Origin: Psammoneis japonica
Taxonomy: Eukaryota
Assembly (NCBI GenBank): GCA_008632985.1
Contig: QPGO01000126.1
Location: forward strand, 186,001-239,979
DNA: 53,979 nt
Direction: 5' to 3'
Part shown: piece after piece, positions 5,701 through 37,559 of the stretch
Layout: every line of letters starts with the position of its first letter
How positions within the stretch are numbered: the first letter of the stretch is position 1
Program-made: the position numbers and the translations under genes
The notes under the pieces: model-generated
The model's input: only the letters and a program-made list of their open reading frames with translations
The model's database searches: none
What the model was told of the DNA's origin: nothing

Positions 5701-5961
5701 GGAACATGGTGATGCGGCGGCAGTTGTCATTTTTCTGAAACGGAAATAAACCTGCGGATGATAGCGTCTGTCATGCGTTCTCGCTAAACAATTTCTCTCA
5801 GTGCAAACAGCGAACGACGAACCGAACGCAGAATAAGCACCAAAAACAACCAACAACAGCACTGACAACACCAACGTGCAATCTTGTCGTCTCGCACGAG
5901 TGCTTGTTCCCTGCTGCGCCTTAATCATTGATCAGATTGCAGGATCAGTTCACTTGCACTT

Positions 5962-7324: not shown

Positions 7325-10020
7325 GCCATTTCCCATGATTCCTTCACATCTAACTTTGAAGTTCCTGATCAAACACATCAAACAAACCATCAAAAGTGGC
7401 CATGATGTTGGCCGTGCTCTGGAATTGTTGGCACCTGGAGTAGAATGGCAAGACCATCTCCAGCAAGTGAACATGTGACACTTCAATGTCAAATGCTTCT
7501 GTGTCACTGACTTGCTCAATGGAGAGTAGCTCCACACTGGATGTTGTCCCACTGATGACATGCTGGGCAGTTGCTTCTCCATGCCTCTGGTGCAGTTCCA
7601 GCAACTGCAGGCCCACAACCCAAACCTCCCAAACAAAAGTTGTTTTAGATGGTGGGTTCAAATTGCTTTTTGTGTTTTCTCTGATGCAACATCACTTGTC
7701 CTTTTTGCAGTGTGTGTTGGATTTCCAGTGCAGGCAGCTGCAGCAAAACACAGGATTCTCTGACAACTTGTGTGAGTGCACTCTGGAAGCATGCACATTT
7801 GTGCCCCCAACCTGCAGAGCTGGCAAAATGTGTTCCACTTGGCAGGTCATGGTCCAAATCATTCAATCCATGGCCATGAAATTGAAGTGCTGTCATTGGT
7901 TTTGTGCACCTGCTCAAATGCTTCCAAAGCATCACACCAGTGCCCTCTGGCCATGAAGAAGTGCCTGGCATGTGCCACATTGTTCCAGACACTGACATGC
8001 CATTTAAAAAGGCAAAAAACATGGATTGAGAATTCTTTCAAATGACGACTTGGTTGACATCTTGCACAAGAATGCAGGCAGCCAAAGAGGCTGGCATTGA
8101 TTGCAAATCTGTGCAGCGGTTGTTGAAAAAACTGTGGCCTGAATGTCAAAGACCCCTGGCAGGCATGAACATGTGTGACAGAGGCATTTGCATGTGCTGC
8201 ATTGATGGTGCCACAGGAGCTCTCACTTGGCGGTTTTTGAAAGAATGGGTTGAAGTTGATCACATTGTCATGGCTGCTGTGGAAGTTTGCCCAATTGTTT
8301 CACTGACATTTGCTGGTGTTGATCTTGATGGTGTTGATGGTTCTCAGCAAAAATTGACTTTTTTTTTGTTTGGTGTTGTGCTCTTGGCTCACACTTGTTT
8401 TTGAAGTTTTTCACACAAAGTGCCTGCAGACCATCGCATTGCCAGGCACCAGGCATTAAAATTTGGGAGCTGGGCTCACAACCAGAAAAGGCTGCTTCGC
8501 CACAAAAATCTGCCAAAAAGAACATCTCATCCAAGCTGAGCTGCTGAAAAGAAAAACGTTTGGCTTCAACGCCATTGGAGTCATTTTTGCATTGTCTTTG
8601 GCATTTTTTGCACCCACACCAGGGTCAATCCAGCAGCAATGAGCTGGGCAATGTCCTCTGAGATGCAACCCCAATGAGATCAAGGCTGCAGTCTGGTGCC
8701 CTCATGTTTGCACACCCAGCATCAAGGAGAAAACCAAGCACAACCAGGAAAAACACCAACAAGTGCACAAGAGAATGACTGCAAAAGCTGTGGTGCTGGC
8801 AGTCACAAGCTGGCAGCACTTGCACACACTTTTCAACCTTTTTGACAGTGATGCAAACACAAGTGATCTCAACCCTGAGTGTGCTTGGGACTGGCCTTTT
8901 GCCAAAAATGTCACTCAGCGGCTCTTGTGTGACAGATTTTTGTTGGGGAGGGGGGGAGAGGCAACAACCACAAGGTGGGCAGAAAACATCACACTGGCCC
9001 AGTGTTGGCGGGCATCAGATGTGCCCCCCCCCCCTTGACAGATGTGGCACAAAAGCACACATCTCTGTCAATGGAGGGGGAGGAGGAGGCCTCAACAGTG
9101 GGCACAAGAACCTTGTTGTGATCCTGGGCATGCTGCTCTTTTCTCCCTCTCCTCAACACTGGCCTGGCACAGGGCTCCACGGTGCACCTCAGGCTGGGTG
9201 AAATCACACCACTGCTCTGCTTGGTTGTGAGACACCACCTGTCTCGGAAGATTTGGACTTCCCTTTGAAAATGCCACAAGAAAGCAATCAAAAGACTTTC
9301 AGAAAAGATGCCATCAGCTGCAGGCAGGGTGCCCAAGTTTTTGAGATGAAAGCTGTGGCTGGAAGAAGCTGTGCTCCCAAAGGTTGCAGGAGTGGCTCAG
9401 CCTCTGTGGCAGGCTGCAAGAGTTGCAACTGTTGCTCTGCTGCTGGCTAAAAACACACTCCTCTGGAGTGGCAGAGCAATGGACTCAAATGGTGCTGCTT
9501 GTGCAGACACTGCCAGCCGCAACCCACATGTGTGTTTGTTTTGTGATGTTCACAAGGCTGGCAGTGTGAGGAGGGGAAAGGAACAGCGCCCCATGCAAGG
9601 CAGCATCATGAAAAGTGGCTGTGGTTGTTGCAATGAGTTTGGCCCAAAAAGTCCATCAGAATTCTTTAACTGCAAAGATTGTTGAAGCCCATGCAGATGT
9701 GCAGCTGGCGAAATGAGCAGCGACAGGTGGGAGGAGAGGAGTTGAAGGACATGAGCGGCGGAATTTTGGACAGTGTTGCATCCAAGAGTTTGTGTGGCTC
9801 GCTGAGAAGGGGGGGCTGAGCGGCAAGAGCTGCCAAAGCGATCAGCAGAGTGGATGGGGAGGAGAGAGCACAGGAAAAGGCGTCAAAGGATGCGGTGGAG
9901 TGCTGCAAAGTGCTGGGGTTGGGCCAGGGGGGGCTTTCGGAAAAGTTTGCGGGAAACGGAGTTGTCTCGGCTTTGCAGCGCGCGTGTGCCAGCCAGACGC
10001 TCGGGACTCAGGAACTCGGG
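7325..10020. repeat. TpA-depleted degenerate repeat block 2 (family not recognised)
   Basis: TpA is nearly absent and TG/CA is in excess. No identifiable protein motif. Confidence 0.75.
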
Positions 10021-10221
10021 ACTGACGTACTTGGTGGAAGTTTCGAAGCGGAAGATCCAGATTTCGATTTTTTTGACACCACTCCGCCGTCACACTCCAT
10101 CCTGGAATCCATCATCCATCATCACCACACCCAACATCACCAAGTGATCAGCTCATCAATTCTGATCCAGAATAGGAAAAGCAAAAGGATCAGCCCGTGT
10201 ATCTGTGTGAGAACTATTAGG

Positions 10222-12790: not shown

Positions 12791-13139
12791 TTTGTTATTC
12801 TCTGTTGTTTCAATGAGAAGACTTGTTTTTGGCGATAATGTTCTTGTTTTTTGCGTTGGATGTGGAATTTGTGAGAAGGATTTTTGCAATGGCATTTCTC
12901 GAGTCTTTTTAGTGTGGCGCACGAATGATGCAGATTATTGGGGTTCGCATCCGTGTCAGTCGGATATCAATTATTGGTACAAAACCTACGTAAATCGTCG
13001 TATGTAATATCTTGTGTAGGGACATACGAGTTGAAGAATTCTGCAAGAATGCATCTGGAACACAAAAGAAGCTCGCCAAGAGGTTGGCGCGAACGAAATG
13101 CCTTCTCGTTTTGAATGGTCGCGGGCCTCGTCAAGCTAA

Positions 13140-15360
13140 AAACGTCACCTCCAATGGTGGCAAGCTCATCTTGGCATCTTTGACAGTTCCGCCAACTTGA
13201 GTGTTGCCACAATGAAAGACTTTGATGCCACCAATGTCAGCCAGCAGTGGCCTGGTGCATCATTGAGACTTGACCTTTGACCATCACCAAAAGCGCCTTT
13301 TCAAGTGGCTTCACCCGCCAGCAAAATGCCGCTGACAGCCCATCCCTTGGTTTGTCAAGACCATGCTTGCAGGCAACAATGGCCACAACTGAGTCTCTCG
13401 ACCTTGGTTTTGCCACTTTCTTTTTTCCCTTTGGCACTTGTGTTTTTTCAACTTGAAGGCACAAACAACAAACAGTGCGCACTCTCGTCATTTTTTTGTG
13501 AGGTGCTTTCTTGTTGAAAGAGGAGTTGAGGCAGTGGCGCTGCAACTTGGCCTTTCACCATTCTCAAAATCCAAACTTGCCATTTCTTAAATGACATGAT
13601 CTGCCAACAGAAGCCTTCCCTGTCTGCTTCTGTGTGCCACTTTGTTCATCATCGGCAACGGGCTGACCCTTCTTCCTCCTCTGCGAGCGTGGCCTCAGCT
13701 CAAAAGGCAGCAGCAGTTTTGATTGCAGCTGTTTGCCACCCAACTGTGTCATCCTGACCCATTGCTGCTAAAAGTGTGACAGCATCAATGCAGAGAGCCT
13801 CTTCTCCTCTCGAGACCAAGTTGACGAGGCAAACCCAGCGCGCGAGTGGCGCCAAGCAAAGTGCAAGCCAAAGAGTTTGGCTCGCTGGCAATCTCCTTCA
13901 GCTTTCTCATGTCTGCCATGCTTGGCCACCACTTCACCCCATCTGCATTGCAGTTCACTGCAACAGAGTCAAAGTTGCTGCCACACAAAGCTCGGAAGTT
14001 TTCATCACATTGTCGGGCAACAAAAAAATGACATCAAGCAATGAAGCAGCGGCTTGATCTTGGCTGGCCTCCTGTCAAGACTTTGAGCTGGATGAAATCT
14101 GGAGTCAAACCAAAGCACACAAGGTGGGGGCTTTCAAGCCATTTTCACTGGACATCAACAGCACCCCTCTTTGTCACAAGGGCACCAGTCAAAGCTGAGA
14201 GTTTGACGAATTTAGCATGCCTGACATTTCTGCAGCAAAAGCTGCAAAGGCTCAATCCATGTAAAACTGACATGTCATCTTTTGGAACAAGAGCCCATCA
14301 ATTCATGGGCAAATGCCTGCATGTGCTGCCCAAAACCTCTCAAGCTTTCTGCTCAATGGGTCCAGAAGATCACCCCATGGCACAAGTCCTTTGATGTCCA
14401 AGAAAAATGGAGCAATGTGTTGCAATTTTTGTGGGCTCCATTGTTCCATGGTGAGCCTCCTCTGGTGCCAAAAAAAGATTGCAAATGCCCTCAATTGATC
14501 AAACCCCTGATGCCAAAGCTCCTCGTCACACAACGTGGCCACACACTGGTTTGTCTGAAGGGCATTTTGAGCACAGATGTGTTCTAGTCCCAGGTGACAC
14601 ACTCTCATGTGCGCAAAGGTTTTGAATGTAAAATGCTCAAGTGGATGGGCTTCTGCAGGCATTTAGAGTGTGAACACACAAACAGTTTTTTTGTTGGCAT
14701 TCAATTCCTCATGGGAGATGCACCACAAACTCCCTCTGCTGCAGACTCAACATTGATTGTGCGACAGCACATTGAATGCAGATTTTCAGTTGCAGGCATG
14801 ACACCTGCCAGAAGGTCTTGCAGAAAAATCATTTAATTTGACATTCAAATGACGGCCGAAAATCATCCGTTGTGTTGCGATTCGTTTGTCGCAATGTAAA
14901 ACATGGACAGCACAAAAACAATGATGTTGCAACACTGACGCGCAAGCCTTGTCAGTGTTGCAAAACATGCAATTTTGTGTGAATCTATACTTTTGGTGGT
15001 GAAAGCTTGTTCACAAGTGAGAAACCACGCAAAAATCATGCAAATGTCATTTTTGTGCACGATTTGGGTCATGTGCGGCTGGAACACGTCCACAACATCA
15101 TGTGGAACATCACCAAAAAAGCTTTTTTGGCAGTTCAAAGCATGAAAATTTAGCAAGAAACTGGCAAGTGTCCATGACAGAAAAGAAGTGCACTCAATTG
15201 AGGCACACACCACCGATTCGCTGATGCACTCGAGCAGTGCACAAAAGCTCGACACAGATGGGTTGACAGGTTCGGCGTGTGTGTGAAGTGAGTCTGTGCT
15301 GGAAATGGCTGCAGTGGAAAAGGAGACACAAACCAGCATTCTCCTCTTGGTCGTGATGGT
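13140..15360. repeat. TpA-depleted degenerate repeat block 3 (family not recognised)
   Basis: Few TpA and dense Cys/His-rich spurious ORFs between two normal genes. Confidence 0.7.
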
Positions 15361-19059: not shown

Positions 19060-21251
19060 GGTGGCGTTCGAGTTGCAATATGAACGACAGTAACAACAAC
19101 ACAGCAACAAGAAGAGCGAGAAGCAAAGAAGATGCGTCGATCATGTGCACGACAGATGCCGCAGAAATCCGTTGATTGGAGGATCGTTGTCTTCGGGGTT
19201 CGCAAGTGACGTCAACAATTCTGTGTGGAGTTCGCAAAGTAGGATTAAGACGACTAAAACATCCATTGCTTTCAGACTGTGTCGTGCCATTTTCTCTTCT
19301 CTCACACTTCATGTGCACATGCCTTCACTCATCTGCCCCATTCTCCAACTTTTGGCAAGACAAACTAAAAAATGCTCCAATTGGCCATGGGGCAGTGCAG
19401 CCACCTGCCATGATTTGACAAAAACAGAGCAGCATCCCCCCATCATTTCGTGGCGCACTCCTCAAAAGCACTTTTGCACAAAAATGCTTGTGCCAACACC
19501 CCCACGTCACCACGAAAAATTGTTTGACGACATGCAAGAGCATCTGCCACAGAGGAGAGTCTTGACAAAAATGGCAACAAAAGAGAGAGAGAGGGGTGCA
19601 TGTGCTTTTTTTTCTCTGAGAAAGCACCCTCGGGAACACTGGGCACACACAGAAATTGTGGGTTGCTGGCTCTTCGGTGAGAAATGCTGCGGCACACATC
19701 ATGAAAAAAGGAACTTTGCTGCCAGACAAGGAGTGTTTGGGGGACATCTCCAGCCAGCCACTGGCTAAAAAAATTCTGTCCGTCAGTGCATTGGGGGCAC
19801 AACATTTTTGACATTTTGGAATTTCATCTAATTTTGATCCTGGGCCAAGAGCAACGAGCGGCACATGTTTCACCATGATGGAAGCTCCAGCGCATTGCCA
19901 ACAATGTGCAGCAGATGTTGCTGGCATGCATGAGATGCTGAGAGTTGAGCTCAATCCTTGTGGCCATCTTTTGTGTCTTCGCTGTCTTTCAGAGCTGGAA
20001 GCGGCTCGAGGAAAGAACTCGCTTCAGTGCACGGTTTGCGACCATGCTGTCACCAGCCATCAAATTTAGAGAGCACCAACAACAAAAAGTTGAAAAAGGA
20101 CAGGATGGAAGAGAGCAAGGAATGTTGATGGAGATGAGCTTGAGGTGCAAGAGATTTCACGAAGCATCATTCATCATTGAGCCTCACGAGGTTGTCGATG
20201 CGCACTTTGTCCGTGGCTGGCAAATTTGAGAAAGATGGGTGAATCAGATCAAAGAGGCTGGGTGGGAAATGGATTGTTGGCAAATGTGATGCACAAGATG
20301 TCATTTTCTGAGAATCACCAGCTTGAGCTGCAGAAGCTCCAGCAAACTCTGTCTGCCAATGCCGAGTTCCTTCCCTCAGCGACTGATGAACAAAACTGTG
20401 TTGACACCAATGTTTGGCTCCACTCGGCTGTGGCACCATTGTTGTGCACTTTGTTAGAAGGCAACGAGGAAGAGGGGCATTCAGTCATGCAGACTCCTGA
20501 CAATTTGCTTTGGCATGTGGCAAATGTTGATTCACGGATGCTCGGGGAGGGTTTTTTTGCAATGAGCACTGGCCATGTGCCACATCAAAACATCAACCTG
20601 AAAGATGCCGGGCACCAGTCCCAGGTTTTTGCTGTGGCCATCTGCCAAGATCTGACAGTCTGTGCAGCAGATCCAAAGAAGGACATTGGTCATGCTGCAA
20701 ACACTCTGTCATTTCAAGTTCAAACAAGCCAACAAACACAGCTTTGTGAGCTCTTGGCGAGGATGAGACTTGTCAGCAAGTCTTGCAGTGCACTTTCACA
20801 TGATCTTTGTAGAAGGGCAGCAGAGGCAATGGCTCAGCGCACTGACCTTGGAACTCACAAGCCTCTTGTTTGTTCTGGGGACGATGTCAACATGAAGGAC
20901 GGTCAGGGCGGTGCTGCTGAACAGACAGCAATGCCTTTCAGGTGCCTCCGATTGGTGAACTGCCCTGCAATCAGGATCCTCCGCTTGATCGAAATTGCAC
21001 CGATTGGAGCAAATGGATGAAGGAAAGCACTGCTGACAAAGTCCTGGCAGTGTTCTTGCCAAGCAAAAAAGACACACATGAAATTGGGGAAGTGGCATTG
21101 TCTGACTTCACTGCCATTCTGCGTGACCTTAACGCGATGCCGTGGGGGGTCGAGGAGTGCAACAAATTGTGCTCTCCTCCACATTTGTTTGTCACCACCA
21201 AGAAGATCCCACATCTTTGGCATGTTGGCAACAAGCCAGATGTTCAACGAC

Positions 21252-22277
21252 TGTCATGTATCCTACCCAAAGTGCGAGCTCCACATATAGATGAGATGCC
21301 GTCATGCTGCCTGACGGTTACCGGTAAGCCTCTTTACCATCTCGCTCGCTCAGTGGGCACTTTAATGTCTTAACCATTGAATCAACTAGTACATCGCCTA
21401 CGTGGACATATCACCACACGCGACATCCTCCTTACTAGTGACTTCAATGTTCTTCGTTCACAACGATCCTCCTCGTTCCTATGTCAAGTCGGTTGCTCTG
21501 AGATTCCTGATTCCCAAGTCAGAGAACCGGTCTGTACACCGCTCCTTCTCATCCCTTCGAACAGAAAGTCTCTTTCGAGTTTCGAACCTTCGACCTCTTT
21601 TGACTTCACCGCCAATCAGAACTTTCAGCTGCTCAGACCTCGTCTTGCATCCGCTGTGCCAGGAAGCTATGTAGGNNNNNNNNNNNNNNNNNNNNNNNNN
21701 NNNNNNNNNNNNNNNNCCTACATAGCTTCCTGGCACAGCGGATGCAAGACGAGGTCTGAGCAGCTGAAAGTTCTGGTTGGCGGTGAAGTCAAAAGAGGTC
21801 GAAGGTTCGAAACTCGAAAGAGACTTTCTGTTCGAAGGGATGAGAAGGAGCGGTGTGCAGACCGGTTCTCTGACTCAGGAATCAGGAATCTCAGAGCAAC
21901 CGACTTGACACAGGAACGAGGAGGATCGTTGTGAACGAAGAACATTGAAGTCACCAGTGAGGAGGATGTCGCGTGTGGTGATGTGTCCACGTAGGCGATG
22001 CACTAGTTGATTCAATGGTTGAGACATTAAAGTGCCCACTGAGCGAGCGAGATGGCAAAGAGGCTTGCCGGCAACCGTCAGGCAGCATGACGGCATCTCA
22101 CCATGTCATGCATCCTGCCCAAAGTGCGAGCTCCATGTGTGGATGAGATGCCGTCACACTGCCTGACGGTTGCCGGCAAGCCTCTTCACCATCTCGCTCG
22201 CTCAGTGGGCACTTCAATGTCTTGACCATTGAATCAACTGGTGCATCGCCTGCGTGGACATGTCACCACACGCGACA
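21252..22277 (-). mobile_element. LTR retroelement with 174-bp LTRs (21252-21425, 22104-22277); interior collapsed or rearranged
   Basis: TG...CA direct repeats flanked by the duplicated target AACGAC (21246-21251, 22278-22283). On the minus strand, the purine tract AAGGAGGA abuts the left LTR and TGG follows the right LTR. Confidence 0.8.
21676..21716. other. Assembly gap (N run) at the centre of an inverted duplication
   Basis: 41 N. The segment at about 21290-21675 reappears reverse-complemented at 21717-22099. Confidence 0.95.
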
Positions 22278-23059
22278 AACGACTTTGTTCCAGTTGGCAG
22301 GATTGTGAGGAAAGGATTGTTGAGAAGATGGTCGAAATCAATGCCACATGGAACAAAAACCACATTCATCCTTGTCCAATTCAGAATGTGACATTTGGGT
22401 CACGGGGGACTGTGTGCGGCATCGTGGGTGCATTGAATTGTCAAGCTGATCATCAGATGGCAGCATGCAAGAGTGCACTCTCACAAGGCCTTGACATGCC
22501 TGCACTTGGGGTGCCAATGTCTGCCGATTCTGCACTCTTTTCAGCAGATGGCGCAATGGCAGAGATGATGGGCCGGATGTTGGACGAAGATGCGTCAAAT
22601 GCTGTCCAAAAGTGCAGCAAGTTAGTTGTCGTTCCCGGTCCTTTCCATTGGAAGAATGACACTTTTAAAAAAGCCAATCATTCAAGTGAAGATTGGGCCA
22701 CACATGTTGGAGACCAGTTTGCTGGAAAGGATGGGGAGAGTGCCTTGGACAAATTTTGTTGTTTCTCACTGACTTCTCTGACCCAACTGTCCCCAAAATG
22801 TGGATTGAAGCGGCAATGGCAGCAGTTCCAGCTGCAGTCTGTTGGAGCATGAAGGCATCAGGAAGGCAGCAAGCATCACCAGCTGATGCTTGTGACTGGA
22901 TGATCGAGCGAGCAATGGAAAGCCCTCAAACAATGAACCTCGTTCAAATGCATTTTGGTTGTCTTGTCATGAGGCACTTCAAATGTGCACTCAGAAACAA
23001 TCTGTGGGATCGACACTTGAGTGCAATTTGATTGAGCACGCCATTGCAGGCTGTGATGC

Positions 23060-23456
23060 GACGCGCTCCAGCTCTGGGTGGGACCTTGCACCACTGCACT
23101 GTGACATCAACAGTTTTTTGGATCGCGTCGCATGTCACACACGTGCATTTCTACGTGTTGTGTTCTACGAAATTGTTTCATGCTCCCTGTTTTGCAAAGC
23201 CAAAGGCTTTCTATTTTCAACATTCATGAGAATGAAAATGTGCTGGGCATGTTCTTTGATGTCTGAAGAACACACCCGGGCAAACTGTTGATGATGTGCT
23301 GCAAGCATGGAGGAGGAGATGCGTTCGTAAAATTGCCTCTTTTTCTGTTGGCGATCATGCATTTTTTCATTGCAGTGTGAATTTGCTGCAGAGCTTGCGC
23401 GCAGAATTCTACAGGCCCAATGTCACACGGAGTCCCACCTGGGACTGGAACCCGTC
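23060..23456. mobile_element. MITE copy 1 (GACGCG-TIR family, diverged interior)
   Basis: Ends gacgcgctccagctctgggtgggac and gtcccacctgggactggaacccgtc. Flanks are ATGC and GTGC (3 of 4 match). Confidence 0.75.
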
Positions 23457-25191
23457 GTGCATGGAACTCTGCACTCCAGGATGGCCGGAGATCTCTTTTG
23501 TGAGATGCTGCAGTGTGTTGGTCCCAGATGGAGAAGGCGGTTGTAAAGGATCTCTTGTTTGCATTGAAGAGCAAACAAGATGAGCACATTGAACGTGACA
23601 TCATGCAAGAGAAGCATGTCCGGGTCATTCATGAGAGAATCAGCAATGAATTGAAAAGGGGACATCAACCCAAAATCGAGGAAGCCACCCAAGCCGCGGT
23701 CTTGCAGGCAAACAAGAGGCATGCAAAGCATGTGATCAAGCACCTTGGTCTCGATGAAGAGGAACCATTGGAAACAAAAAAGGTGTTGTCGGGCTGGACG
23801 CAGAACAAACGGGCAACAAAGGCACATGCACAAACATTTCGATTGTTGACAAAGGGAAAGTTCTTCTTGCCAGGTCTGTCAGAGAATGAAGAAAATGACA
23901 AGTCTCTCATTTCGGTGAGAGACAGAGAGCCGTTGGAGATGCAAGGCAACTCGATGCATGAAAGATTGGAGCCACGCGGCGGACAAGGTGCATTGCTGAA
24001 TTCCTTGTCAAGAGTCAGCATGAGGTCCTCCGAAAAGAAAAGGACATTGGAGTGGAAAGGATTCCAGCTGCAAGCCAGAAAATTGCCAACAAAATTGAGC
24101 AACACCGGATCAGGCAAGTGTCAACTGACGTTGAAGAGTTGAAGAAGAGCGGAACCATCAAAGAAGAGATTCATGGAGCATTCTCCATTTTAGAGCCACA
24201 TCCAAGTCGCGGCTCAAGCAGTCGTGGACTTGACACCTGCAAAACTGAGCGGAACAACCAAGACGTTCTTGGTCAGTCATCTTGTTCAGTTGAGAAAGAC
24301 CCTTTTTCGTCATCGGCCAGAACTTGTTCCAACTTTGAGCAATGGCATCAGGGACAAAGCAGGAGATTCTACCACATCACAAGAGAGGAGAGAGGAAATG
24401 CCAGGTGACAAGTTTTGTGCTCAGAGGGAGTGCCCAGCGCACATGGATCAGCTCCATCTTGACAGAAAAGGTTTGTTTCAGTTGCAGCTGAGACAATCTG
24501 TGGCATTTGTTTGCATTGCACACATCAGGTGCAATCTGTTCTGCTTGTTTTGAAGCCTTGCTCAATCTCAACAGAGTTGCAGAGAGAGCAGAAGATGACA
24601 GCAGGCTCAAGTTGAAGTTCTTTGGCTGAATCTTGATGTGGTGTCAGCGGTGTCTGGTGTGCTCGCACGAGCTGAGCATTGGATCACTCAGAGTTCTGAA
24701 TCCAAGTCAATGATGCACAATGTGTGGCAAGTGTTTTGGCTTGTCTCTGCTGAGTTCTTGACAGTTTCACGCTTTTGATGCTTCACTTTCCTCTCTGAGT
24801 GAGTCTCACTCTCATTGTCATCAAGGAACCACAGACGCGTTCCAGCCCTAGGTGGGACTCCGTGTGACATTGGGCCCGTAGAATTCTACGTGCGAGCTCC
24901 GTAGTACGAGAATTTAATTAATGGATATATTTATCTTAAACATCAAATAAATGGCCAAGTTTGTGGTACAATTATGCGTGTCACCACTTGACGTTTTTGC
25001 AAATGCGCCTGCCCTACGCGATTCTTAAGACATTATAGAATCGCGCTGTAACAAAAAATGTCAAAAGTTGTTGGACGTATCGCTCAATAAGTGTACCGTA
25101 AAATGACACAAAACATCGAAAAAATCACGTAGAAATCTACGTGCGCGACATACGACGTGTTTCAAAAAACTATCGATGTCACAGTTCAGCA

Positions 25192-25353
25192 TGCAGTGTC
25201 TCGCACCTTATTTTTCTGATATATAGTATTAATGAATCTATTAGATATAACGGAAGCCGTTGTAACGGGCTTCGCTGAAAGCGACCCTCGTTACCTCGGT
25301 CTTTCGCTCACAATTTTGTTGTCACTGAAGTCTTTATCTCGTTAAACCTTGCA
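25192..25353 (+). repeat. Gypsy 5' LTR
   Basis: TG...CA direct repeat of 30416-30577; retains 14 TpA. Confidence 0.93.
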
Positions 25354-25587
25354 CTGTAATTACAGTCGATTTAAAGAACTGGATGGAGACTAGGAATAAT
25401 ACAAACAAATTGACTAAACGTGAGAAAAGAGAACTGCACGCAAGAGCAGCAGTTTGGGCTGTCGAGCACCAGAAACAAGTGCAACAACGTAAATGACACG
25501 AACAGAATTTGGCGAGCCGAGTGCATCATTTGGAGTCAAAGGTAGAGTCCCTGGAGAGGACCATTGAACAATTGCATTCCCTTTTTC

Positions 25588-26809
25588 ATGATGAGTGAAT
25601 CGTTGAAGGAGCCTTGCACTGGCTGTGAAGCTAAATTTGAGCATTCTGACTTGGAGGAAGTGAAATTGACCCAATCGCATGATGACGGCAGCACTCGTAC
25701 AAAAAAAGTGTCCGCGTTTTGATGGCACTCATGGCATTGAAGCATTGTCATTCGTTGAGGATCGTTTTCGTAAAATTGCTGTGAAATTGGAGCACACTGC
25801 TGGCGAGGAATTGTTCGAAAATTTCGAGGAAGTGCTTGCGGATGCTGCAGAGGACAAGTGGGCGAACTTGACCAATGCAATTGACGATGCCGATAAAACT
25901 GTCGAGCGTTTTGATCAGGAAATCAATTGTTTTTGCTTGTCTTATTGTGACAATGAAGCGCGTGATGCGATGATTGAACATTTGCCAACTTTGAAAAAAC
26001 CATTCAAATCTGAAGTGCAGGCGCATGCAGATCGCATGGAAACCTTGATTCGGTGCTCCAACAAACTTCCAGGAAATGCTCCTCAAGTCAACGAAGCTCA
26101 GAAGAAAAAGATGACATTCGACAGCTTTCCTCATCCGTGGCGTGAGATGTGCACTCGAGCAGGACGAGCGACAGCGAACGACACTCTCGCTGAGATCATC
26201 AGTTGTGTGAACAACGAGAAATCTTTTGCTGACAAGAGCAGCAACAAAAAGCAGGACAAGAAGAGGAAAAGCAATGGTGTTTTGTCTCAAGCTTCAAGAC
26301 GCTCTCGTGGCAACAGTGGCAGAACGGATCCAAAATCTAGATGCCCGGTGCATGCGAATCACGACCACAAGTGGAAGGGTTGCATTTTGAATCCAGAAAG
26401 CCAAAACTGTCGACCGAGGTCCGACCGTGGCGGTCACAGCGGAGGTCATGGTGGAGGCCGAGGAAACCACCAAGGCAGAGGACCCCAAGGTCGAGGCGGT
26501 CGTGGTGACTTCCAAGGTCGAGGACGTGGCAATTGTGGCAATCAAGGAGGACATGGAGGCCGAGGTTACGGCAATTGTGACAACTCCCAGAATTCTCAAG
26601 GGAATGGATCCCATTGCCAAAATCAAAACGGCACCCAAGCCAACGGTGACACCCAAGGCTGTGGAAATCCGGCTGGAGCAGCTCCTCCTGGTGGCTGGCA
26701 AATGGAGTCGCACCATTTTGATCAAGGAGGGCCTCGTGAGATGCGAGGTGGAAATGGATGCGATCAGAACGGTCGCACCCATCAAGGCCAACGAAGTTGG
26801 CGTAATTGA
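25588..26809 (+). pseudogene. gag: Gypsy gag (1-nt frameshift in the A7 run near 25701)
   Basis: Capsid-like helical region, CPVHANHDHKWKGC zinc-knuckle variant and a G/R/N-rich tail. Only 2 Tyr in the 376-aa ORF. Confidence 0.75.
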
Positions 26810-29800
26810 CAAGGGACGGAAGTGCCCGAGTCAGAGCGTGTCGCTCAATCTTTTTATGTTTCGTGTGATCGTGAAGAAAATGTGTGTTTTAATGTTGATG
26901 ACAATGTGGGAGACCTGATGGAATCTCACACTGTGAATGAAGAAAAATTGGGCAGCGTTTTGGAGCACGCCATGCCAACCCCTAAAACTGTGACTCCCAA
27001 ACCATTGAATGTGGTGCCAACGACGTTGATGGCGGCGCGTGCCATTCAAAATCAAGAGAGCAAGCGAGTGTTACGAGTGCCATTGGATTCAGGAGGTGCT
27101 GACACTCTTGTTCATTCTCGAGTTTTGCCGAAGGGAGCGAATCCAACCATGAATGATGAAGGACGGTTGAGCTTTCAGACGGCAGCCGGACGACATAAAT
27201 CCTCCCGATACGTTGTTATGAAGGACTTGATGTTGCCAGAATTTGACAAGTCAAAACAAGTCGATGGCATTGCGGCTCAAGTTTTTGATGCCCCATGCAA
27301 GTGTGATTTAATTTTGGGACAAGACTTTTTGTCGAAAGCCGGAATCGTACTTGATTTTCGATTTGGAACAACAAAGTGGTTGGAAACGTCGATCCCAATG
27401 AAGCAATCCAATCATTGGAACTCAGTTCAGAATTGGTTGGATACACTGGAAGACGACGGAGAGGACGAAGACGATGAGGGAGCCTTCGGACAATCTTTCA
27501 TGATGGACGCCAAATGCGAGAAAGCATCATCCGCAAAAGCAGCGCAAACTCAAACTCACTTAACTCAAGAGCAACGTGATGAGCTACAGGCAGTGCTTGA
27601 AAAGCATGAAACCCTCTTTGATGGAATGCTTGGCAAACATCCGCATGAGACTGTTCACTTGGAAGTTGATCCCAACGCTGCTCCCTTCCATTCTAAGGCT
27701 TGCGAAGCATCCAAGAGGGATGAAGCCGTTTTTAAGAAAGAACTACAACATCTATGTAACATTGGCACATTGGAACCGTGGGACCAACTGAATGGGCAGC
27801 CGGAACTTTTGCAACTCCCAAAAAGGATGGACGAGTTCGATGGGTGTCCGATTTTTGAGAGTTGAACAAGGTGCTCAAACGAAAGGTCTATCCTCTGCCG
27901 ATCATTCAAGACGTCATTCACCGACGCTCGGGATGCAAGCACTTGACCAAGTTGGACCTCACTGTGTTTTATTGTCACATCGAGCTTGACGAAGAATCCA
28001 AGGATTTATGTGCTGTTGTCACTCCGTTTGGAAAATTTCGATGTTGTCGATTGGCCATGGGTTTGAAAACCTCTCCTGACATTGCTCAAGCCATCATTGA
28101 AAAAGTGGTAAAAGGAATCGATGTTGAAACTTACATTGATGACATTGCTCAATTTGATGATTCGTTTGATGCTCACATGCGTCGACTCGATGAGCTGTCA
28201 TCCAGACTAGAAGAGAACAATCTAAAAATTAACCCACTCAAGTGCGAATGGTGTGTCCAAGAGACGGATTTTTTAGGCCATTGGCTCACGCCTGCAGGAG
28301 TCCGACCGTGGAAGAAGAAAGTGGAAGCAGTGCTACGAATGCAACCACCTAAAACTGTGACGCAACTACGATCGTTTGTCGGTGCGGTGACTCATTGTCG
28401 CAACATGTGGCCTCGTCGTTCACACGTGCTCGCTCCACTCACGAAGTTAACAGGCAAGAGCAAGTTGGAATGGACCCCTGAATGTCAACGAGCCTTTGAA
28501 GACATGAAAACCTTAATGCTGGACGACACCCTTTGGGTCCACCCGAATCATAACAAGCCATTCCATGTTTGTGCTGACTCTTCGGACTATCAGATGGGAG
28601 CCGCAATTATGCAAGACGGGAAACCAGTGGCTCACTGGTCCCGAAAACTCAGCGCAGCACAACAGAACTACTCTGCGATTGAAAAAGAATTGTTGGCGGT
28701 GGCAATGTGTTTCAAAGAATTTCGAAGCATGTCATTTGGAGCTGATTGTGCTGTTTTTACGGATCATAAAAATCTCACCTTTCGTACGCTCAATTCTCAA
28801 CGAGTTCTTAGGTGGCGACTCTTCTTGGAAGACTTTGCCCCAACTTTTGAATACGTTGATGGCAAAGATAATCTCTTGGCGGATTGTTTTTCAAGATTGC
28901 CACGTGTGGACCCTCCTGCGGAAGGGAAGTGTGCTCCTAACAAGGGCAAACTGATTGATTTTAAAACCATCGACCCTGCCATGCCACCGCATGAAGAAGA
29001 ACTGGACGACCAAAACAGTGTGTCTTATTTTTCCTGTCGTCGTGAAGAACCATCTCCATTTTACTCTTCCGTCGTGGACGACCCCGAATCATGTGAATCA
29101 TTTTTGAACTGTCCTTCTCTCGAGGAAATGCAAAACCCTGCAACTGTGCAACGAATTCAAGAGTGCCAATTCATCGACGTGGAGCTGAACAACATGCGAC
29201 AACAATGTCCAGAACGCTTCATGGTGGAACATGTGAATCAGCATCCTGTAATTTGTTGTCGTGCTCAACCGAATGATCCTCCGACTGCGTGGAAAATTTG
29301 TGTTCCAACGGCGTTGCTGCATGACATCATACGATGGTGTCACAGAATTTTGGGACATGCAGGAGTGCACCGAATGCATTCCACTGTTGGCGCACATTTC
29401 TGTCATCCTGCCCTTCGTCAATCCTGTGAAAGATTTCATTGCACCAATTGTCAACGTTTGAAAACTTTGGGCCCTGGACATGGGGACCTGCCTGAACGGG
29501 AAGCGCCTTCATCACCATGGACAGAAGTTACGGTTGACCTCATCGGTCCCTGGAAAATTGAAATTCAAAACCATGAAATCGAATTCAACGCTTTGACTTG
29601 CATTGACACCGTTTCGAATGTGACTGAACTTGTTCGTGTCGACAACAAAACCTCATCTCACATTGCTCAACAATTTGAAAATTGTTGGTTGTCTCGTTGC
29701 CCTCGTCCGAACCGGTGCATCCATGACAATGGTGGAGAATTCATTGGAGAGGACTTTCAATTGTTGTTGCAACGAGCAGGAGTGGAAGACGCTCCAACTA

Positions 29801-30303
29801 CGTCGCGAAACCCACAAGCCAATGCGGCATGCGAACGCATGCATCAAACTGTTGGAAATGTCTTGCGCACTTTGCTTCATGTTTGTCCTCCACAGAATGT
29901 TGAGCAGGCCAATCAACCAGTGGACAATGCATTGGCAACCGCCATGCATGCAATGCGATGTGCGGTTTCTCGTGCTCTCAAGATTTCACCCGGTGCCATG
30001 GTTTTTCAACGTGACATGATTCTTGACTTACCGGTCCTAGCCGATCTTGCTGCCATTCAAGAACACCGACAAGCGATTGTCAATGCGAATCTCCGTCGAG
30101 CCAACGCTGAACGCCGGTCCTGCGATTTTCAAGTTGGTGAACACGTTCTACTCAAGGCTGTCGACCCAACCAAGCTCGAGCCACGAGCTCACGGTCCATG
30201 TCCCATCGTTCAAGTCCACGCCAACGGTGCGATTTCGGTCCAACGTGCACCTCATGTGACGGAACGATTGAACATTCGTCGCGTCGTCCCGCATCGCACC
30301 TGA
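26810..30303 (+). pseudogene. pol: Gypsy pol (protease, RT, RNase H, integrase)
   Basis: Contains LDSG, YIDD, DSSDYQMGA, EKELLAV, TDHKNL, ADCFSRL, H..GH..C..C, VDLIGPW, HDNGGEF and NPQANAACER. There is a frameshift near 27779 and an in-frame TGA near 27857. Confidence 0.93.
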
Positions 30304-30415
30304 GGTCAAGGGTTTTCTCCCCAACATTTGGGTTTCCCTTCTATCCTCATCCATTGGAATTTAAATTTTTTGAGTCCCGCATGATTCTCGACACTCGAAT
30401 CATGGAAGGGAAGAG

Positions 30416-30577
30416 TGCAGTGTCTCGCACCTTATTTTTCTGACACATGGCATTGATGAATCTATTGGATGTGACGGAAGCCGTTGCAACGGGCTTCGCT
30501 GAAAGCGACCCTCGTTACCTCGGTCTTTCGCTCACAATTTTGTTGTCACTGAAGTCTTTGTCTCGTTAAACCTTGCA
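30416..30577 (+). repeat. Gypsy 3' LTR
   Basis: Follows the PPT and differs from the 5' LTR at 10 positions, all within TpA. Confidence 0.93.
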
Positions 30578-31505
30578 CAGCAGTGCGAGGTCCCACCTAG
30601 ACCTGGAACGCGTCCACAGAGCAGTGGGTGCTGTCATCCCCAGTCATGTGCTCGATGCACTCATCATCGAAAGGAAGGTTCTTGTGGTTGAGACCAATGA
30701 CAATTCTCTTTGGATGAGGCAGAATGGCTTTGTCCAGTGGAGCAACTCCATTTTTGAGTGGTGTGCCAACATTTCGCTCCAAAACAAGAGACAACTTGCA
30801 GTTGACAGGAACATCTCGCACCAGTTCCATGGCATCGGCCACAGATCTCTCAGCAGCCGCCAGTGCTCTGCGGACAGGTCATGACATTGCATGGTGTGGC
30901 TTCACCAGCGAGTCTTCACGAGTGCATTGGCGCTTTCCTGAAAGCTTTTTCCCACTTGCATTGTTCCCAGCACACTCGCCCAGCATTTCCTGAGTGTCGG
31001 AACAAAGCACGACCTTCTCGGGTTCCAGAGTGTGCTCATTGGAAATGGCAGGACATTGATGTGTGCACTTCAATCTGTCAAACTCCTTCCTTTTGTCATC
31101 TGGAGACAAGCTGCTCCACCAATTCATTGCAACAAGCTTCTCTTGAAGTGTCCTCACATCAAGGATGAGGGACATTGGCAAGCGACATCCATCGGCAGCA
31201 GTTTTCATTCCACGCGGGAGTGCTTCTCTGAGATTCTCTTGCAAAGCTCGGGTGGCGTGGAGCTTTGGATCCGTCCACACACCATTGTCATTGTCTTTCA
31301 TGTTGTTTGGCAGCATGGTGTCATCAATGAGAGCCTTGACTCCACGAATCTTCACCACTGGAATTGGAGCCATGGATCCAGCTGGTGACGATGGAAGCAT
31401 GAACCCCCGCCTTGCACACATCACTTGCATCAGGTGTGACAGTGTTCATGGAAGGCATTGGACACATTGCAGCACACAAAATGGAAGCCCCTGGGAGCCA
31501 TCTTT

Positions 31506-31895
31506 GATGCGTTCCAGGTCTGGGTGGGACCTGGCACTGCTGAACTTTGACATCAACAGTTTTTTGAATCGCGTCGCACGCAGCGCACGTAGATTTCTAC
31601 GTGATTTTTGCGACATTTTGTGTCATTTTATGGCACACTTGTTGAGCGATCCATCCAACAACTTTTGACATTTTTTGTTGTCGCGCGATTCTACAATGTC
31701 TTGAGAATCGCGCGGGGCAGGCGCTTTGGCAAAAACGTCAAGCAGCAAGAGGCACAATTGCACCACAAACTTGGCCGTTCATTTGATGTTGAAGACAAAC
31801 ACATCCATCAATTAAATTCTCGCACTGCAGAGCTTGCACACAGAATTCTGCGGGCCCAATGTCACACGGAGTCCCACCCAGGGCTGGAACATGTC
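31506..31895. mobile_element. MITE copy 3 (uninterrupted, inverted relative to copy 2)
   Basis: Ends gatgcgttccaggtctgggtgggac and gtcccacccagggctggaacatgtc, with 4-bp TSD CTTT. It carries the empty Gypsy target (a single CAGCA on the minus strand). Confidence 0.85.
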
Positions 31896-33483
31896 CTTTT
31901 GCCATCGTCATCAGCGTCAAATTGCGCCAACAGTGCGTGTGTTGGGTCGTGGAATTTGTGCCCCTGATGCACTGACAGACAGAATTTTTTCAGCCAGCAG
32001 CTGGCTGGAGACGTCCCCCATGTTGGAAATCCAAACCGAGGTGCACAAGTGGGCTTTTTGTGTGTTTGACAAAAAATGGGGTGTGAGACAAGCCCCAGCT
32101 GCCAAACAAACAAAAGCTCAGATTTTGCCAAATGACTTGTGTGTTCTTCATTGTTGCCTTTCTTGACAAGAAGCAGTTTTGCAACAAGCTGGGGCAAATG
32201 CAGGCCAAACATTTGCCTCCAGTGGTCTGGCTCAAGAGGAAAGTGACGCTGATGTCATGCCAACACTCTTTCTGGCTCCAGGTGATCCGCGCGGGTTCGA
32301 TTCCCAAAATTTGGCAATTTGTGCATTTGGCACATTGAACTTTTTCAAAATCTGTTTTTTGCCAAATCGAAGGGTGAGTGTGCACTTTTCATGTGTTTTT
32401 GGGTGTGCACTTGCCTTTCGATTTTCAAAACGATCAAAATTGAAGGAGTTTGATGCACCAAACTGTGCAGAAAATCGGCCTCTTGCGCGACGAAAAGCGG
32501 ATCACCTGGAGCTGGAACAGGCCTTCTGCCAGCCACCAGTGAGCTGCTCTTCTCCGAGAATGATGGCAGGCGGGGAAACTGCCTGGTTTCATCATGGCGC
32601 ACTGAGATGCTGAAAGAGCCACAAGAGCACAGCACACAATTTTTGGCTGGCTGCTGCGTGGGAGCTTGCATGTGCAGGTTGCCAGCGCAAGAGAAACGAG
32701 GCTTTGGCTCAGCAAAATGCTGAGGAGGTCTTCCCACACCCAAGCAGTGCCAAGCAGCTGCCAATGCTTGCTCCCTGTTTGGAGGAACTGGGCTCAGCAT
32801 GCCACAATTTGTGTCCCTGGTCCAACCCTGGCTGAAGCTTGCAGCGCCACTCGAGAAAGCAAAACGAAACCACACACTGCCGAGGTTTGTGATGACTGGT
32901 GAGCCAATGAAATGAATCACATGAGGGGAGAGAGAAGCTCTTTTTCACTTGTTTCATCTGACATTTGAATGGCAGTCATGGTGTCTTCCGGGCCAAGTTG
33001 CGGTGTTGGATCGTCGTGCAGCTCCGAAATTTTTGTCAACAAAACAAAATGCACCAGCTCTGTGTGTCGGGGCGCGGCTGCTGCAATGGCAGTGACCAAC
33101 AAAAATGTCGAGTGAGTCACGGATGAGACGTGCGCTGCATGCATCAGTCGCGCAATAGGGCCCGCTACTGCTGTTGACTGCACGCGCTCCAAAAAATAGA
33201 ATCGACTAATGTCATGAAGTTCAACAATCTCCGATGATTCACGGTTGAACTTTTTGATGCCTGTTTCTTCTTTTCCGCCGGTTGCTTTTGGTCGTGTTGG
33301 GGTTCCTCTGTTGACAATAGTGGCACTATACAACACCATGCCCTGTGAACTCTCGTGACGTTTGTTTCATTCACCGAAACACTCACGTCTCACAACAAAA
33401 AAGTGTGTCTAACACTGCAGCTCTCGGACTCATTATCCTTGATTTGCGGCTTTGATTTTATGCATCTACAATATCCCGGCAGC

Positions 33484-37363: not shown

Positions 37364-37559
37364 GGTTGTATTGTGCTTCGGATCGGCTCTTTTTTTGTTT
37401 CTTGTGTGTGAGAATGCGCGTGAGTGAATGGCTGCTACGTAACCTGCAGTACTGAATGTACGTAGAATGCTTTTTCGCGCGATTGAATGAGCGCATCTGT
37501 TTGCGATCGATCGAGAGCTGCTCTGCACCGCCCGGCACCGCATTAATGGGCCTTTGGCG

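What the first reader, a model, noticed from the sequence alone, without database searches (positions are those of the whole stretch)
21252..22277. Second LTR pair: all 13 TpA erased, plus reciprocal CA/TG sites
The left 174-bp LTR has 13 TpA and the right LTR has none (9 became TG, 4 became CA). The only other differences are two sites with CA in one copy and TG in the other, as expected if one ancestral TA was resolved on opposite strands in each copy. No TA->CG double change is seen, consistent with a single hit destroying the target on both strands. This independently replicates the Gypsy result in an unrelated family.
Basis: seen in the sequence. Interest (0 to 1): 0.85.

Follow-up and report, generated by a model that had tools for sequence, protein, structure and literature searches.

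The report
TpA-erasing hypermutation of diatom transposons
In this diatom DNA, mobile elements are being rewritten after insertion by a process that turns every TA step into TG or CA, a signature so far reported only in one unrelated alga, and this LTR pair shows it half finished.

Summary
The two 174-nt LTRs differ in 17 columns: 13 are TA (left) against 9 TG / 4 CA (right), and the other four form two CA-versus-TG sites.

- In contigs of a public run, the family majority reads TA at both reciprocal sites.
- Three sites read TA, CA and TG in the three copies held in the window.
- The neighbouring Gypsy element has Cys or His at 12 of 19 positions where 120 homologues keep Tyr. All 12 conserved His and 8 of 9 conserved Cys are unchanged.
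- About 48% of the window lies in domains with TpA o/e 0.04-0.10 and TA-free runs up to 1343 bp. Gene regions have 0.53.

The host is a diatom. The best explanation is a post-insertion, DNA-level A:T>G:C hypermutation specific to TpA and aimed at mobile or silenced DNA. A 2026 preprint measured this signature in the chlorarachniophyte Bigelowiella natans. My searches found no report in diatoms. The enzyme is unknown. This is a new member of a very recently described kind.

The parts
21246..21251 (.). Left target-site duplication AACGAC
   Evidence: The same 6 nt stand at 22278-22283. Removing 21252-22283 (1032 nt, a multiple of 3) rejoins the host reading frame.
21252..21425 (+). Left LTR, 174 nt, TG...CA ends; keeps 13 of 15 inferred ancestral TpA
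   Evidence: In one search, five records end at 21252 with unlike upstream letters. These are other insertion sites, so 21252 is the true element end.
21426..21675 (+). Internal region, left palindrome arm, 6 TpA
   Evidence: In other copies of the family this region is followed by 10 letters and then an LTR start (tables 5c and 8).
21676..21716 (.). 41-N assembly gap at the exact centre of the palindrome
21717..21966 (-). Inverted copy of the internal region, 2 TpA
21967..22100 (-). Inverted partial LTR (LTR positions 41-174); keeps 3 of 10 inferred TpA (4 became TG, 3 became CA)
22104..22277 (+). Right LTR, 174 nt; keeps 0 of 15 inferred TpA (10 became TG, 5 became CA)
22278..22283 (.). Right target-site duplication AACGAC
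19247..21251 (.). Host repeat, left part; TpA-erased domain (TA o/e 0.07) into which the LTR element inserted
   Evidence: In one search several contigs 87-92% alike cover 21000-21250 with CA>TG double differences. Two records run on past 21252 with letters resembling the sequence right of the element, which is an empty-site paralogue.
22284..24886 (.). Host repeat, right part; TpA-erased (TA o/e 0.06-0.10)
25192..30578 (+). Gypsy-type LTR retrotransposon. LTRs at 25192-25354 and 30416-30578, flanking CAGCA on both sides, purine tract before the 3' LTR, RT/RNase H/integrase ORF at 27862-30303. TA o/e of the whole element is 0.24.
3404..5761 (.). TpA-erased domain (9 TA in 2358 nt, o/e 0.06; CA 1.80, TG 1.97, CG 0.19)
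7442..10199 (.). TpA-erased domain (o/e 0.05; CG 0.23)
13018..14663 (.). TpA-erased domain (o/e 0.07)
30517..33196 (.). TpA-erased domains right of the Gypsy element (o/e 0.04-0.06); hold the longest TA-free run, 31813-33156 (1343 nt)
37460..42160 (.). TpA-erased domain (16 TA in 4701 nt, o/e 0.05); holds a 507-aa ORF with 0.2% Tyr
43740..45531 (.). TpA-erased domain (o/e 0.05)
50767..53231 (.). TpA-erased domains inside a 1.2-kb direct repeat pair (51239-52423 / 52794-53977)

Best explanation
The window comes from a diatom nuclear genome. In it, mobile or repeat-derived DNA undergoes a DNA-level hypermutation after insertion. The process changes the palindromic step TpA into TpG or CpA: an A:T>G:C transition of the A on one strand or the other. 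One hit removes the target on both strands, so CG never arises. The process acts on each copy separately and in tracts. In this young element the right LTR has lost 15 of 15 TpA, the inverted copies about 70%, and the left LTR 2 of 15, while almost nothing else has changed. Older elements end as kilobase domains with essentially no TpA. The following are shown: the specificity, the direction, the timing after integration, the independence of copies, the restriction to certain domains, and a rate far above background and above CpG decay. The following are inferred: (a) the chemistry, most simply deamination of adenine in DNA to hypoxanthine, which is read as G, by a polynucleotide adenosine deaminase of the TadA/ADAT2 type; (b) the targeting, which I take to be silent chromatin or a small-RNA guide, not sequence duplication as such; (c) the function, a genome defence that destroys Tyr, ATA, TTA, CTA and GTA codons and TA-containing signals.
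For: Specificity. All 17 differing columns of the LTR pair are TA/TG/CA states. So are 12 of 13 in the palindrome arms and 10 of 10 in the Gypsy LTR pair. Only 1 substitution outside TpA occurs in these three comparisons, which cover 174 + 384 + 163 nt.

Direction.
- The family majority reads TA at both reciprocal sites.
- Three sites read TA/CA/TG in the three copies. The right LTR and the inverted copy chose the same product at 3 and different products at 4 of the 7 sites both have lost. That is what independent hits on TA would give.
- In Gypsy pol, 19 columns are Tyr in at least 60% of 120 homologues. The window has Y at 6, C (TGY) at 7, H (CAY) at 5 and F at 1. Conserved His is kept at 12 of 12 and conserved Cys at 8 of 9. 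Tyr content is 0.98% against a homologue mean of 3.55% and minimum of 2.56%.
- A second mapping onto one homologue gives Y 6, H 5, C 10 and other 1 of 22 Tyr positions, His 17 of 17 and Cys 7 of 7. The 79 related metagenome loci pooled give Y 1091, H 59 and C 39 of 1405.

After integration. Both elements have target-site duplications, so their LTRs were identical at insertion. Left against right loss is 2/15 against 15/15, Fisher p = 1.8e-6.

Restriction to domains. Fourteen domains totalling 25,819 of 53,979 nt have TA o/e 0.04-0.10 and CA/TG 1.3-2.0. The rest has TA 0.53 and CG 0.98. Duplicates in gene-like DNA do not show the spectrum: 33642-35542 has 11 TA-type, 16 CG-type and 43 other differences, and 1712-3209 has 8, 14 and 60.

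Faster than CpG decay. The Gypsy interior has TA 0.21 but CG 0.93.

Precedent. Mutation-accumulation lines of Bigelowiella natans gained 230 of 231 A>G/T>C changes, all on TpA, in two integrated viral regions, at about 1000 times the background rate. TpA-poor, CpA+TpG-rich clusters there are enriched in RT and DDE domains. (Preprint 10.64898/2026.01.13.699255; I read the abstract, Results and Discussion.)

Host. A CobW-type ORF is 80-87% identical to proteins of several diatom genera.
Against: No de novo mutation was observed here. Everything is inferred from fixed differences in one assembly plus contigs of one sample, which may be the source of the assembly.

The family consensus is a depth-weighted reading of contig tables. 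46 rows were not shown, and linkage between neighbouring columns cannot be seen.

The element's interior is a palindrome around an N gap and may be partly an assembly product, so the third copy may not lie where the assembly puts it.

Except for the Gypsy element and the host repeat, the TpA-free domains are not shown to be mobile elements. 45 ORFs from them gave no credible Pfam match. A 507-aa ORF has only 23 weak relatives without Pfam domains.

The sharp left/right asymmetry could also come from ectopic conversion of the right LTR by an already erased copy, not from an in-situ tract.

Nothing here identifies the enzyme. A>G on one strand cannot be told from T>C on the other.
Confidence: 0.8

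Rival explanations
1. Fungal-type repeat-induced point mutation run the usual way. Under this reading the ancestral LTR had CA/TG, and the left copies gained TpA by C>T at CpA.
For: A pairwise comparison alone cannot give direction. CpA>TpA is the classical RIP signature. All unique TpA sit in one copy of each pair.
Against: Conserved Tyr codons have become Cys or His, and never the reverse. The family majority is TA at the reciprocal sites. The TA/CA/TG three-state sites would need an ancestral CG mutated in every copy, while the 10 other CpG are untouched. Repeat domains are TpA-free at about 49% G+C, not TpA-rich and AT-rich.
Confidence: 0.02
2. RNA-level A-to-I editing of retrotransposon transcripts, for example of the hairpin that the palindrome would form, is fixed in DNA by reverse transcription.
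For: A 5' U preference is typical of RNA adenosine deaminases, as the preprint's Discussion notes. The element could form a 384-nt hairpin. Variation between family members could partly arise this way.
Against: The two LTRs of one insertion are copied from the same template, so they cannot differ this way (established mechanism of LTR synthesis; TSDs). Both strands are hit within one 174-nt LTR, 10 TG and 5 CA. The host repeat and other domains with no sign of reverse transcription are erased as well.
Confidence: 0.05
3. TpA erasure is real but slow and uniform. The right LTR looks fully erased only because it was converted by, or recombined with, an old erased family member.
For: Many family copies exist, with depth up to about 2300 over the LTR against about 200-550 over the flank, and the contigs carry G/C variants at TA sites. 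Ectopic conversion between LTRs is common in general.
Against: An old donor should also bring non-TpA substitutions. There are none in 174 nt. The Gypsy pair shows the same one-sided pattern, again with no other change. The Gypsy interior has lost most TpA while its CpG is intact.
Confidence: 0.1
4. The pattern is an assembly or sequencing artefact.
For: The palindrome is exactly symmetric around a 41-N gap. The only runs found belong to one sample.
Against: Sequencing errors are not confined to TpA and would not convert conserved Tyr codons coherently. Both TA and TG/CA variants stand in separate contigs at good depth. The pattern follows kilobase domains bounded by genes.
Confidence: 0.02

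Closest known systems
TpA-restricted A:T>G:C hypermutation of integrated giant-virus and virophage DNA in Bigelowiella natans (Mettrop et al., bioRxiv 10.64898/2026.01.13.699255; I read the abstract, Results and Discussion)
   Same: Only TpA is hit. The products are TpG and CpA, depending on strand. The direction is AT>GC, against the usual bias. The process is confined to particular non-host regions while the rest of the genome behaves normally. It leaves TpA-poor, CpA+TpG-rich clusters enriched in RT and transposase domains. It works in bursts.
   Different: The host is different: a diatom (stramenopile) against a chlorarachniophyte (rhizarian). Here the targets shown are LTR retrotransposons and an unclassified repeat, not viral inserts. 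Erasure here goes to saturation, with TA o/e 0.04-0.10 and TA-free runs over 1 kb. The NCLDV region in B. natans still has Rho(TpA) 0.45. Here the evidence is fixed differences, not measured new mutations. The words diatom, stramenopile, LTR and retrotransposon do not occur in that paper.
Repeat-induced point mutation (RIP) of ascomycete fungi (for example PMC7296669, seen as search listing and abstract only; otherwise established knowledge)
   Same: Both act on DNA after insertion. Both hit mobile DNA heavily and selectively, depend on a dinucleotide context, can affect copies unequally, and ruin coding capacity.
   Different: The chemistry and direction are opposite. RIP makes TpA from CpA and produces AT-rich DNA. 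Here TpA is destroyed and G+C stays near 49%. Old duplicates in gene-like DNA of this window are not affected, so duplication alone does not seem to be the trigger.
Polynucleotide adenosine deaminases: ADAR hyperediting of repeat RNA, and TadA/ADAT2 acting on U33-A34 of tRNA (named in the preprint's Discussion; the U33-A34-C35 substrate detail is recalled, not from a call)
   Same: A>G outcome with a 5' T/U requirement. An exploratory count over 78 polarised sites shows the edited strand chosen more often when the base 3' of the A is C (33 of 47) or T (22 of 42) than A (14 of 38) or G (9 of 29). T-A-C resembles the tRNA anticodon-loop context as I recall it.
   Different: Those enzymes act on RNA in their known roles. 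Here the change must be made in, or fixed into, chromosomal DNA after integration. No deaminase gene was examined, because no genome is held for this window.
APOBEC editing of LTR retrotransposons in vertebrates (PMC4866542; search listing and abstract only)
   Same: Deaminase-type hypermutation is recorded in genomic LTR element copies.
   Different: APOBEC changes C>U during reverse transcription, giving G>A on one strand before integration. Here the change is A:T>G:C, on both strands, after integration.

Membership tests
TpA-specific A:T>G:C hypermutation of non-host DNA (B. natans type) | Mutations fall only on TpA | tested here: met
   17 of 17, 12 of 13 and 10 of 10 differing columns in three young repeat pairs are TA/TG/CA states.
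TpA-specific A:T>G:C hypermutation of non-host DNA (B. natans type) | Direction is TpA > TpG/CpA | tested here: met
   Conserved Tyr became Cys or His at 12 of 19 columns, with no His or Cys becoming Tyr. The family majority is TA at the reciprocal sites. Three sites show three states.
TpA-specific A:T>G:C hypermutation of non-host DNA (B. natans type) | Both strands are hit (TpG and CpA products) | tested here: met
   The right LTR has 10 TG and 5 CA. Over 78 polarised sites there are 48 TG and 30 CA.
TpA-specific A:T>G:C hypermutation of non-host DNA (B. natans type) | Confined to foreign or mobile regions, with an ordinary spectrum elsewhere | tested here: inconclusive
   The domain mosaic is clear, and duplicates in gene-like DNA lack the spectrum. 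Only the Gypsy element and the host repeat are shown to be mobile or repeated. The other domains have no annotation.
TpA-specific A:T>G:C hypermutation of non-host DNA (B. natans type) | Measured de novo rate orders of magnitude above background | not testable with these tools
   This needs mutation-accumulation or pedigree sequencing. There is an indirect indication: 17 of 30 TpA copy-sites were lost in the LTR pair, against 1 non-TpA change in 721 aligned nt of three young pairs.
Fungal RIP | C>T at CpA (or another CpN) that creates TpA and AT-rich repeats | tested here: not met
   Repeat domains have TA o/e 0.04-0.10 at 48-51% G+C. The polarity is opposite.
RNA editing fixed by retrotransposition | Changes are present at insertion, identical in both LTRs, and on one strand | tested here: not met
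   The LTRs of single insertions with TSDs differ at 15 and 10 TpA sites, and both products occur within one LTR.
LTR retrotransposon (the 21252-22277 element) | Direct terminal repeats with TG...CA ends and a target-site duplication | tested here: met
   174-nt LTRs with TG...CA ends and AACGAC on both sides. In one search, other copies end at 21252.
LTR retrotransposon (the 21252-22277 element) | Primer-binding site, polypurine tract and gag/pol between the LTRs | tested here: not met
   The interior is about 0.68 kb with no coding capacity and no purine tract before the right LTR. It is palindromic around a gap. In other copies about 260 nt of interior run straight into an LTR. So it is a short non-autonomous, TRIM-like unit, rearranged or misassembled at this locus.

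The most novel reading that the evidence does not exclude
Diatoms and chlorarachniophytes share an old genome-defence system aimed at chromatin or guided by RNA. In it a DNA adenine deaminase, or a thymine-modifying enzyme, erases TpA from silenced mobile and viral DNA in short processive tracts. It is a mirror image of fungal RIP that needs no duplication. If so, it is widespread in the SAR supergroup, shapes a large share of intergenic DNA (about half of this window), and its enzyme would be a natural double-stranded-DNA A>G editor.
Probability: 0.35. Interest if true: 0.9.

Novelty: new member of a known kind. Interest (0 to 1): 0.72.

Why it matters
Until a 2026 preprint on one chlorarachniophyte, no cellular process was known that hypermutates A:T to G:C at TpA in chromosomal DNA.

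Finding the same signature in a diatom changes its standing. Here it is at saturation, on LTR retrotransposons, and caught half finished inside single insertions. That turns a one-species curiosity into a candidate for a widespread defence among eukaryotic algae.

It also makes the search for the enzyme practical. One can compare deaminase and base-modifying genes between lineages that show the signature and related diatoms that do not.

There are practical consequences too:
- LTR-divergence dating in such genomes is badly biased.
- TpA-free DNA loses TAA and TAG stops, so it yields long false ORFs.
- Repeat finders and protein searches will miss erased elements.
- A natural enzyme that makes A>G changes in duplex DNA would interest base-editing work.

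Tried and rejected
- **Whole genome.** None is held for this window, so no full family consensus or deaminase inventory could be made.
- **ESM Atlas.** Closed for this sequence.
- **Earlier findings of the scan.** Nothing for this genome, these words or this sequence. The 'TpA' word search returned only unrelated phage and bacterial notes.
- **Pfam on 45 ORFs from TpA-free domains.** Only two sub-threshold chance-level matches.
- **Host-repeat ORF 20181-21017.** No relative among longer proteins. This is weak evidence, since erasure itself changes the protein.
- **The 507-aa ORF 39774-41294.** 23 weak relatives, best E = 3.5e-10. The 7 tested have no Pfam domain. All 3 consensus-Tyr columns are H or C in the window, which is too few to count. 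No relative in viral contigs.
- **Rfam.** No match in the window.
- **Run X3.** Laid nothing, which proves nothing.
- **UV or oxidative damage as the cause.** Rejected. No C>T at dipyrimidines accompanies the TpA changes, and the pattern is limited to domains.
- **Literature.** Searches with diatom plus TpA/TpG/CpA gave 0 papers. Searches, and word searches inside two diatom transposon papers, gave no report of this signature in diatoms. One search failed on term format and was re-run.

Full report
**What is there**

Positions 21252-21425 and 22104-22277 are 174-nt direct repeats with TG...CA ends. The same six bases, AACGAC, flank the outer ends. Removing 21252-22283 (1032 nt) rejoins an open frame of the surrounding sequence. 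So this is one insertion of an LTR-type element into an older repeat.

The interior is unusual. Positions 21292-21675 and 21717-22100 are inverted copies of each other, placed symmetrically around a 41-N gap. The locus therefore holds a third, inverted, partial LTR copy at 21967-22100. There is no coding capacity and no polypurine tract.

In contigs of a public run, the last 105 nt before the gap run through 10 letters straight into an LTR start (tables 5c and 8). The normal family unit therefore seems to be a roughly 0.6-kb non-autonomous (TRIM-like) element. The palindrome at this locus is either a rearrangement or partly an assembly product. I could not decide which.

**The observation**

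The two LTRs differ in 17 columns:
- In 13 columns the left copy has TA and the right copy has TG (9) or CA (4).
- The other four columns form two sites, 21284-5 (CA against TG) and 21305-6 (TG against CA).

TpA counts are 13 and 0, and CpG counts are 10 and 10. No other difference exists. Thirteen random changes all hitting TpA positions has probability 1.9e-11, or 1.1e-7 if only A/T positions are allowed.

The palindrome arms differ in 13 columns: ten TA (left arm) against TG/CA, one CA/TG double site and one other change. The Gypsy LTR pair at 25192-25354 and 30416-30578 differs at 10 sites, all TA (left) against TG (6) or CA (4).

**Direction**

A pair of copies cannot say whether TA was lost or gained. 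Gain by C>T at CpA is what fungal RIP does. Four independent results say TA was lost.

1. **The family majority.** I laid the contigs of runs X1-X3 on 21000-21675, and 54 contigs of X1 were placed. At 21284, T holds 802.8 of 964.1 depth. At 21285, G holds only 269.1 of 964.1. At 21306, A holds 1742.6 of 2240.3. The majority is TA at both reciprocal sites. At the other TA sites the G/C variant is a minority or about half where listed. Limits: 46 rows were not shown, linkage between columns is not visible, and all three runs are one sample that may be the source of the assembly.
2. **The three copies in the window.** Fifteen ancestral TA sites can be inferred. The left LTR keeps 13, the right keeps 0 (10 TG, 5 CA), and the inverted copy keeps 3 of the 10 it covers (4 TG, 3 CA). 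Three sites read TA, CA and TG in the three copies. At the 7 sites lost in both the right and the inverted copy, the product is the same 3 times and different 4 times. That is what independent hits on TA give. An origin from CG would need every copy mutated at those sites while 10 other CpG stayed intact.
3. **An outgroup test on the neighbouring Gypsy element.** I aligned its pol ORF (27862-30303) to 120 homologues. In the 19 columns where at least 60% have Tyr, the window has Tyr 6, Cys 7 (TGY), His 5 (CAY) and Phe 1. All 12 conserved His and 8 of 9 conserved Cys are kept. Tyr content is 0.98% against a homologue mean of 3.55% and minimum of 2.56%. His and Cys are both 4.43% against 3.04% and 1.81%. 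A second mapping gave Y 6, H 5, C 10 and other 1 of 22 positions. The 79 related metagenome loci pooled give Y 1091, H 59 and C 39 of 1405.
4. **The composition of the window.** TpA o/e is 0.32 overall, with CA 1.42 and TG 1.45. This is a mosaic. Fourteen domains totalling 25,819 of 53,979 nt have TA o/e 0.04-0.10 and CA/TG 1.3-2.0. They contain TA-free runs of 1343, 1250 and 1032 nt. The rest, which holds the recognisable genes (peroxidase, FAD-binding, CobW, MFS), has TA 0.53 and CG 0.98. RIP would leave the opposite: TpA-rich, AT-rich repeats.

**Properties of the process that the data show**

- **It acts after integration.** Both elements have target-site duplications, so their LTRs started identical.
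- **It acts on each copy separately.** This follows from the three-copy result above. Copies of the host repeat also differ from the window by CA/TG double changes.
- **It is far faster than ordinary substitution.** In the LTR pair 17 of 30 TpA copy-sites were lost. Only one non-TpA change occurs in the 721 aligned nt of the three young pairs.
- **It is faster than CpG decay.** The Gypsy interior has TA 0.21 but CG 0.93. Older domains have CG 0.19-0.39 as well.
- **It works in tracts.** Retention along the element runs 13/15, 6 TA, 2 TA, 3/10 and 0/15 from left to right. Left against right LTR gives Fisher p = 1.8e-6.
- **It is not triggered by duplication alone.** Repeats inside gene-like DNA have mostly other differences: 43 of 70 for 33642-35542, and 60 of 82 for 1712-3209.
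- **There may be a strand-choice preference.** Over 78 polarised sites the edited A is more often followed by C (33 of 47) or T (22 of 42) than A (14 of 38) or G (9 of 29). This is exploratory, because the choices are paired and not independent.

**Host and relatives**

A CobW-type ORF is 80-87% identical to proteins named for several diatom genera, so the window is from a diatom.

Seventy-nine related Gypsy loci from metagenomes have TA o/e 0.39-0.92. None reaches the 0.24 of this element. The two lowest, L044 and L040, also carry Cys/His at 10 of 19 and 10 of 21 conserved Tyr positions. The process may therefore act in other organisms too.

**Comparison with what is known**

A 2026 preprint on Bigelowiella natans measured this signature in mutation-accumulation lines:
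- 230 of 231 mutations in an integrated giant-virus region and a virophage region were A>G or T>C.
- All of them were on TpA.
- The rate was about 1000 times background.
- Only some lines showed it.
- TpA-poor, CpA+TpG-rich clusters were enriched in RT and transposase domains.
- The authors propose a DNA-acting ADAT2-like adenosine deaminase.

That paper does not mention diatoms, stramenopiles, LTRs or retrotransposons. My searches found no report of the signature in diatoms.

I therefore file this as a new member of that very recently described kind. It differs in lineage, in targets (LTR retrotransposons and an unclassified repeat) and in degree (saturation). Fungal RIP is the functional analogue but fails the membership test on chemistry and direction. 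RNA editing fixed by retrotransposition fails because the LTRs of one insertion differ and both strands are hit.

**Mechanism**

The mechanism itself is inferred, not shown. The simplest chemistry is deamination of adenine in DNA to hypoxanthine, which is read as G. The 5' T requirement, and perhaps the 3' pyrimidine preference, recall the U33-A34-C35 context of tRNA adenosine deaminases. That detail is from memory, not from a call.

Because TpA is its own complement, modification of the T (for example oxidation to a base that mispairs with G) gives the same record and cannot be excluded.

I infer targeting to silent chromatin, or by small RNA, from the domain pattern and from the preprint's note that the hypermutated region is transcriptionally silent.

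**What stays open**

- Whether the TpA-free domains other than the Gypsy element and the host repeat are mobile DNA.
- Whether the palindrome is real.
- Whether the right LTR was erased in place or converted by an erased copy.
- What the enzyme is.

Noticed in passing
window 1-53979, e.g. 3404-5761, 7442-10199, 37460-42160: About 48% of the window lies in sharply bounded domains with almost no TpA (o/e 0.04-0.10). Several borders sit within a few hundred bases of gene starts: 5761/5876, 33196/33606, 42160/42164, and 37460 against the CobW start near 37109-37166.
   Followed up: partly
window 9820-11403; also many ORFs in 3700-5400, 7300-10100, 30800-32900: TpA-free DNA has lost its TAA and TAG stops, so it yields many long overlapping ORFs on both strands. 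The peroxidase ORF gains a spurious N-terminal extension of about 200 aa that runs into the erased domain; the Pfam domain starts at residue 206.
   Followed up: partly
window 24839-25191 and 31538-31890: A 353-nt inverted repeat (86%) brackets the Gypsy element and its flanks. 19 differences are TA in the left copy against TG/CA in the right, plus 3 CA/TG doubles. These may be terminal inverted repeats of a DNA transposon into which the Gypsy element inserted.
   Followed up: no
window 51239-52423 and 52794-53977: A 1.2-kb direct repeat pair (95.4%) runs to the window end. It has 26 TA-type differences (4 and 22 by copy), 8 CA/TG doubles, 5 CpG-type and 7 other. Both copies are eroded, and they may be the LTRs of a third element.
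   Followed up: no
L044 and L040 (metagenome loci): Two distant Gypsy relatives from metagenomes have the lowest TpA (o/e 0.39 and 0.42). They carry Cys/His at 10 of 19 and 10 of 21 conserved Tyr positions, which suggests the same process in other organisms.
   Followed up: partly
window 33606-35774: A 722-aa ORF with internal repeats (periods 423 and 657 nt, copies 62-92% alike), Thr-rich and almost without His or Trp, with no Pfam match. It has ordinary TpA content and an ordinary substitution spectrum between its repeats.
   Followed up: no
window 21676-21716: The 41-N run sits exactly at the centre of a 384-nt-arm palindrome. This is what one would expect if an assembler could not pass the centre of a true hairpin, but it also fits a scaffolding artefact.
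   Followed up: partly
window 25192-30578: The Gypsy element keeps 14 TpA in its 5' LTR (25001-25500 bin o/e 0.81), while its interior (0.21) and 3' LTR (4 TpA) are largely erased. The other element likewise keeps its left LTR. In both, the left LTR is the part that is spared.
   Followed up: no
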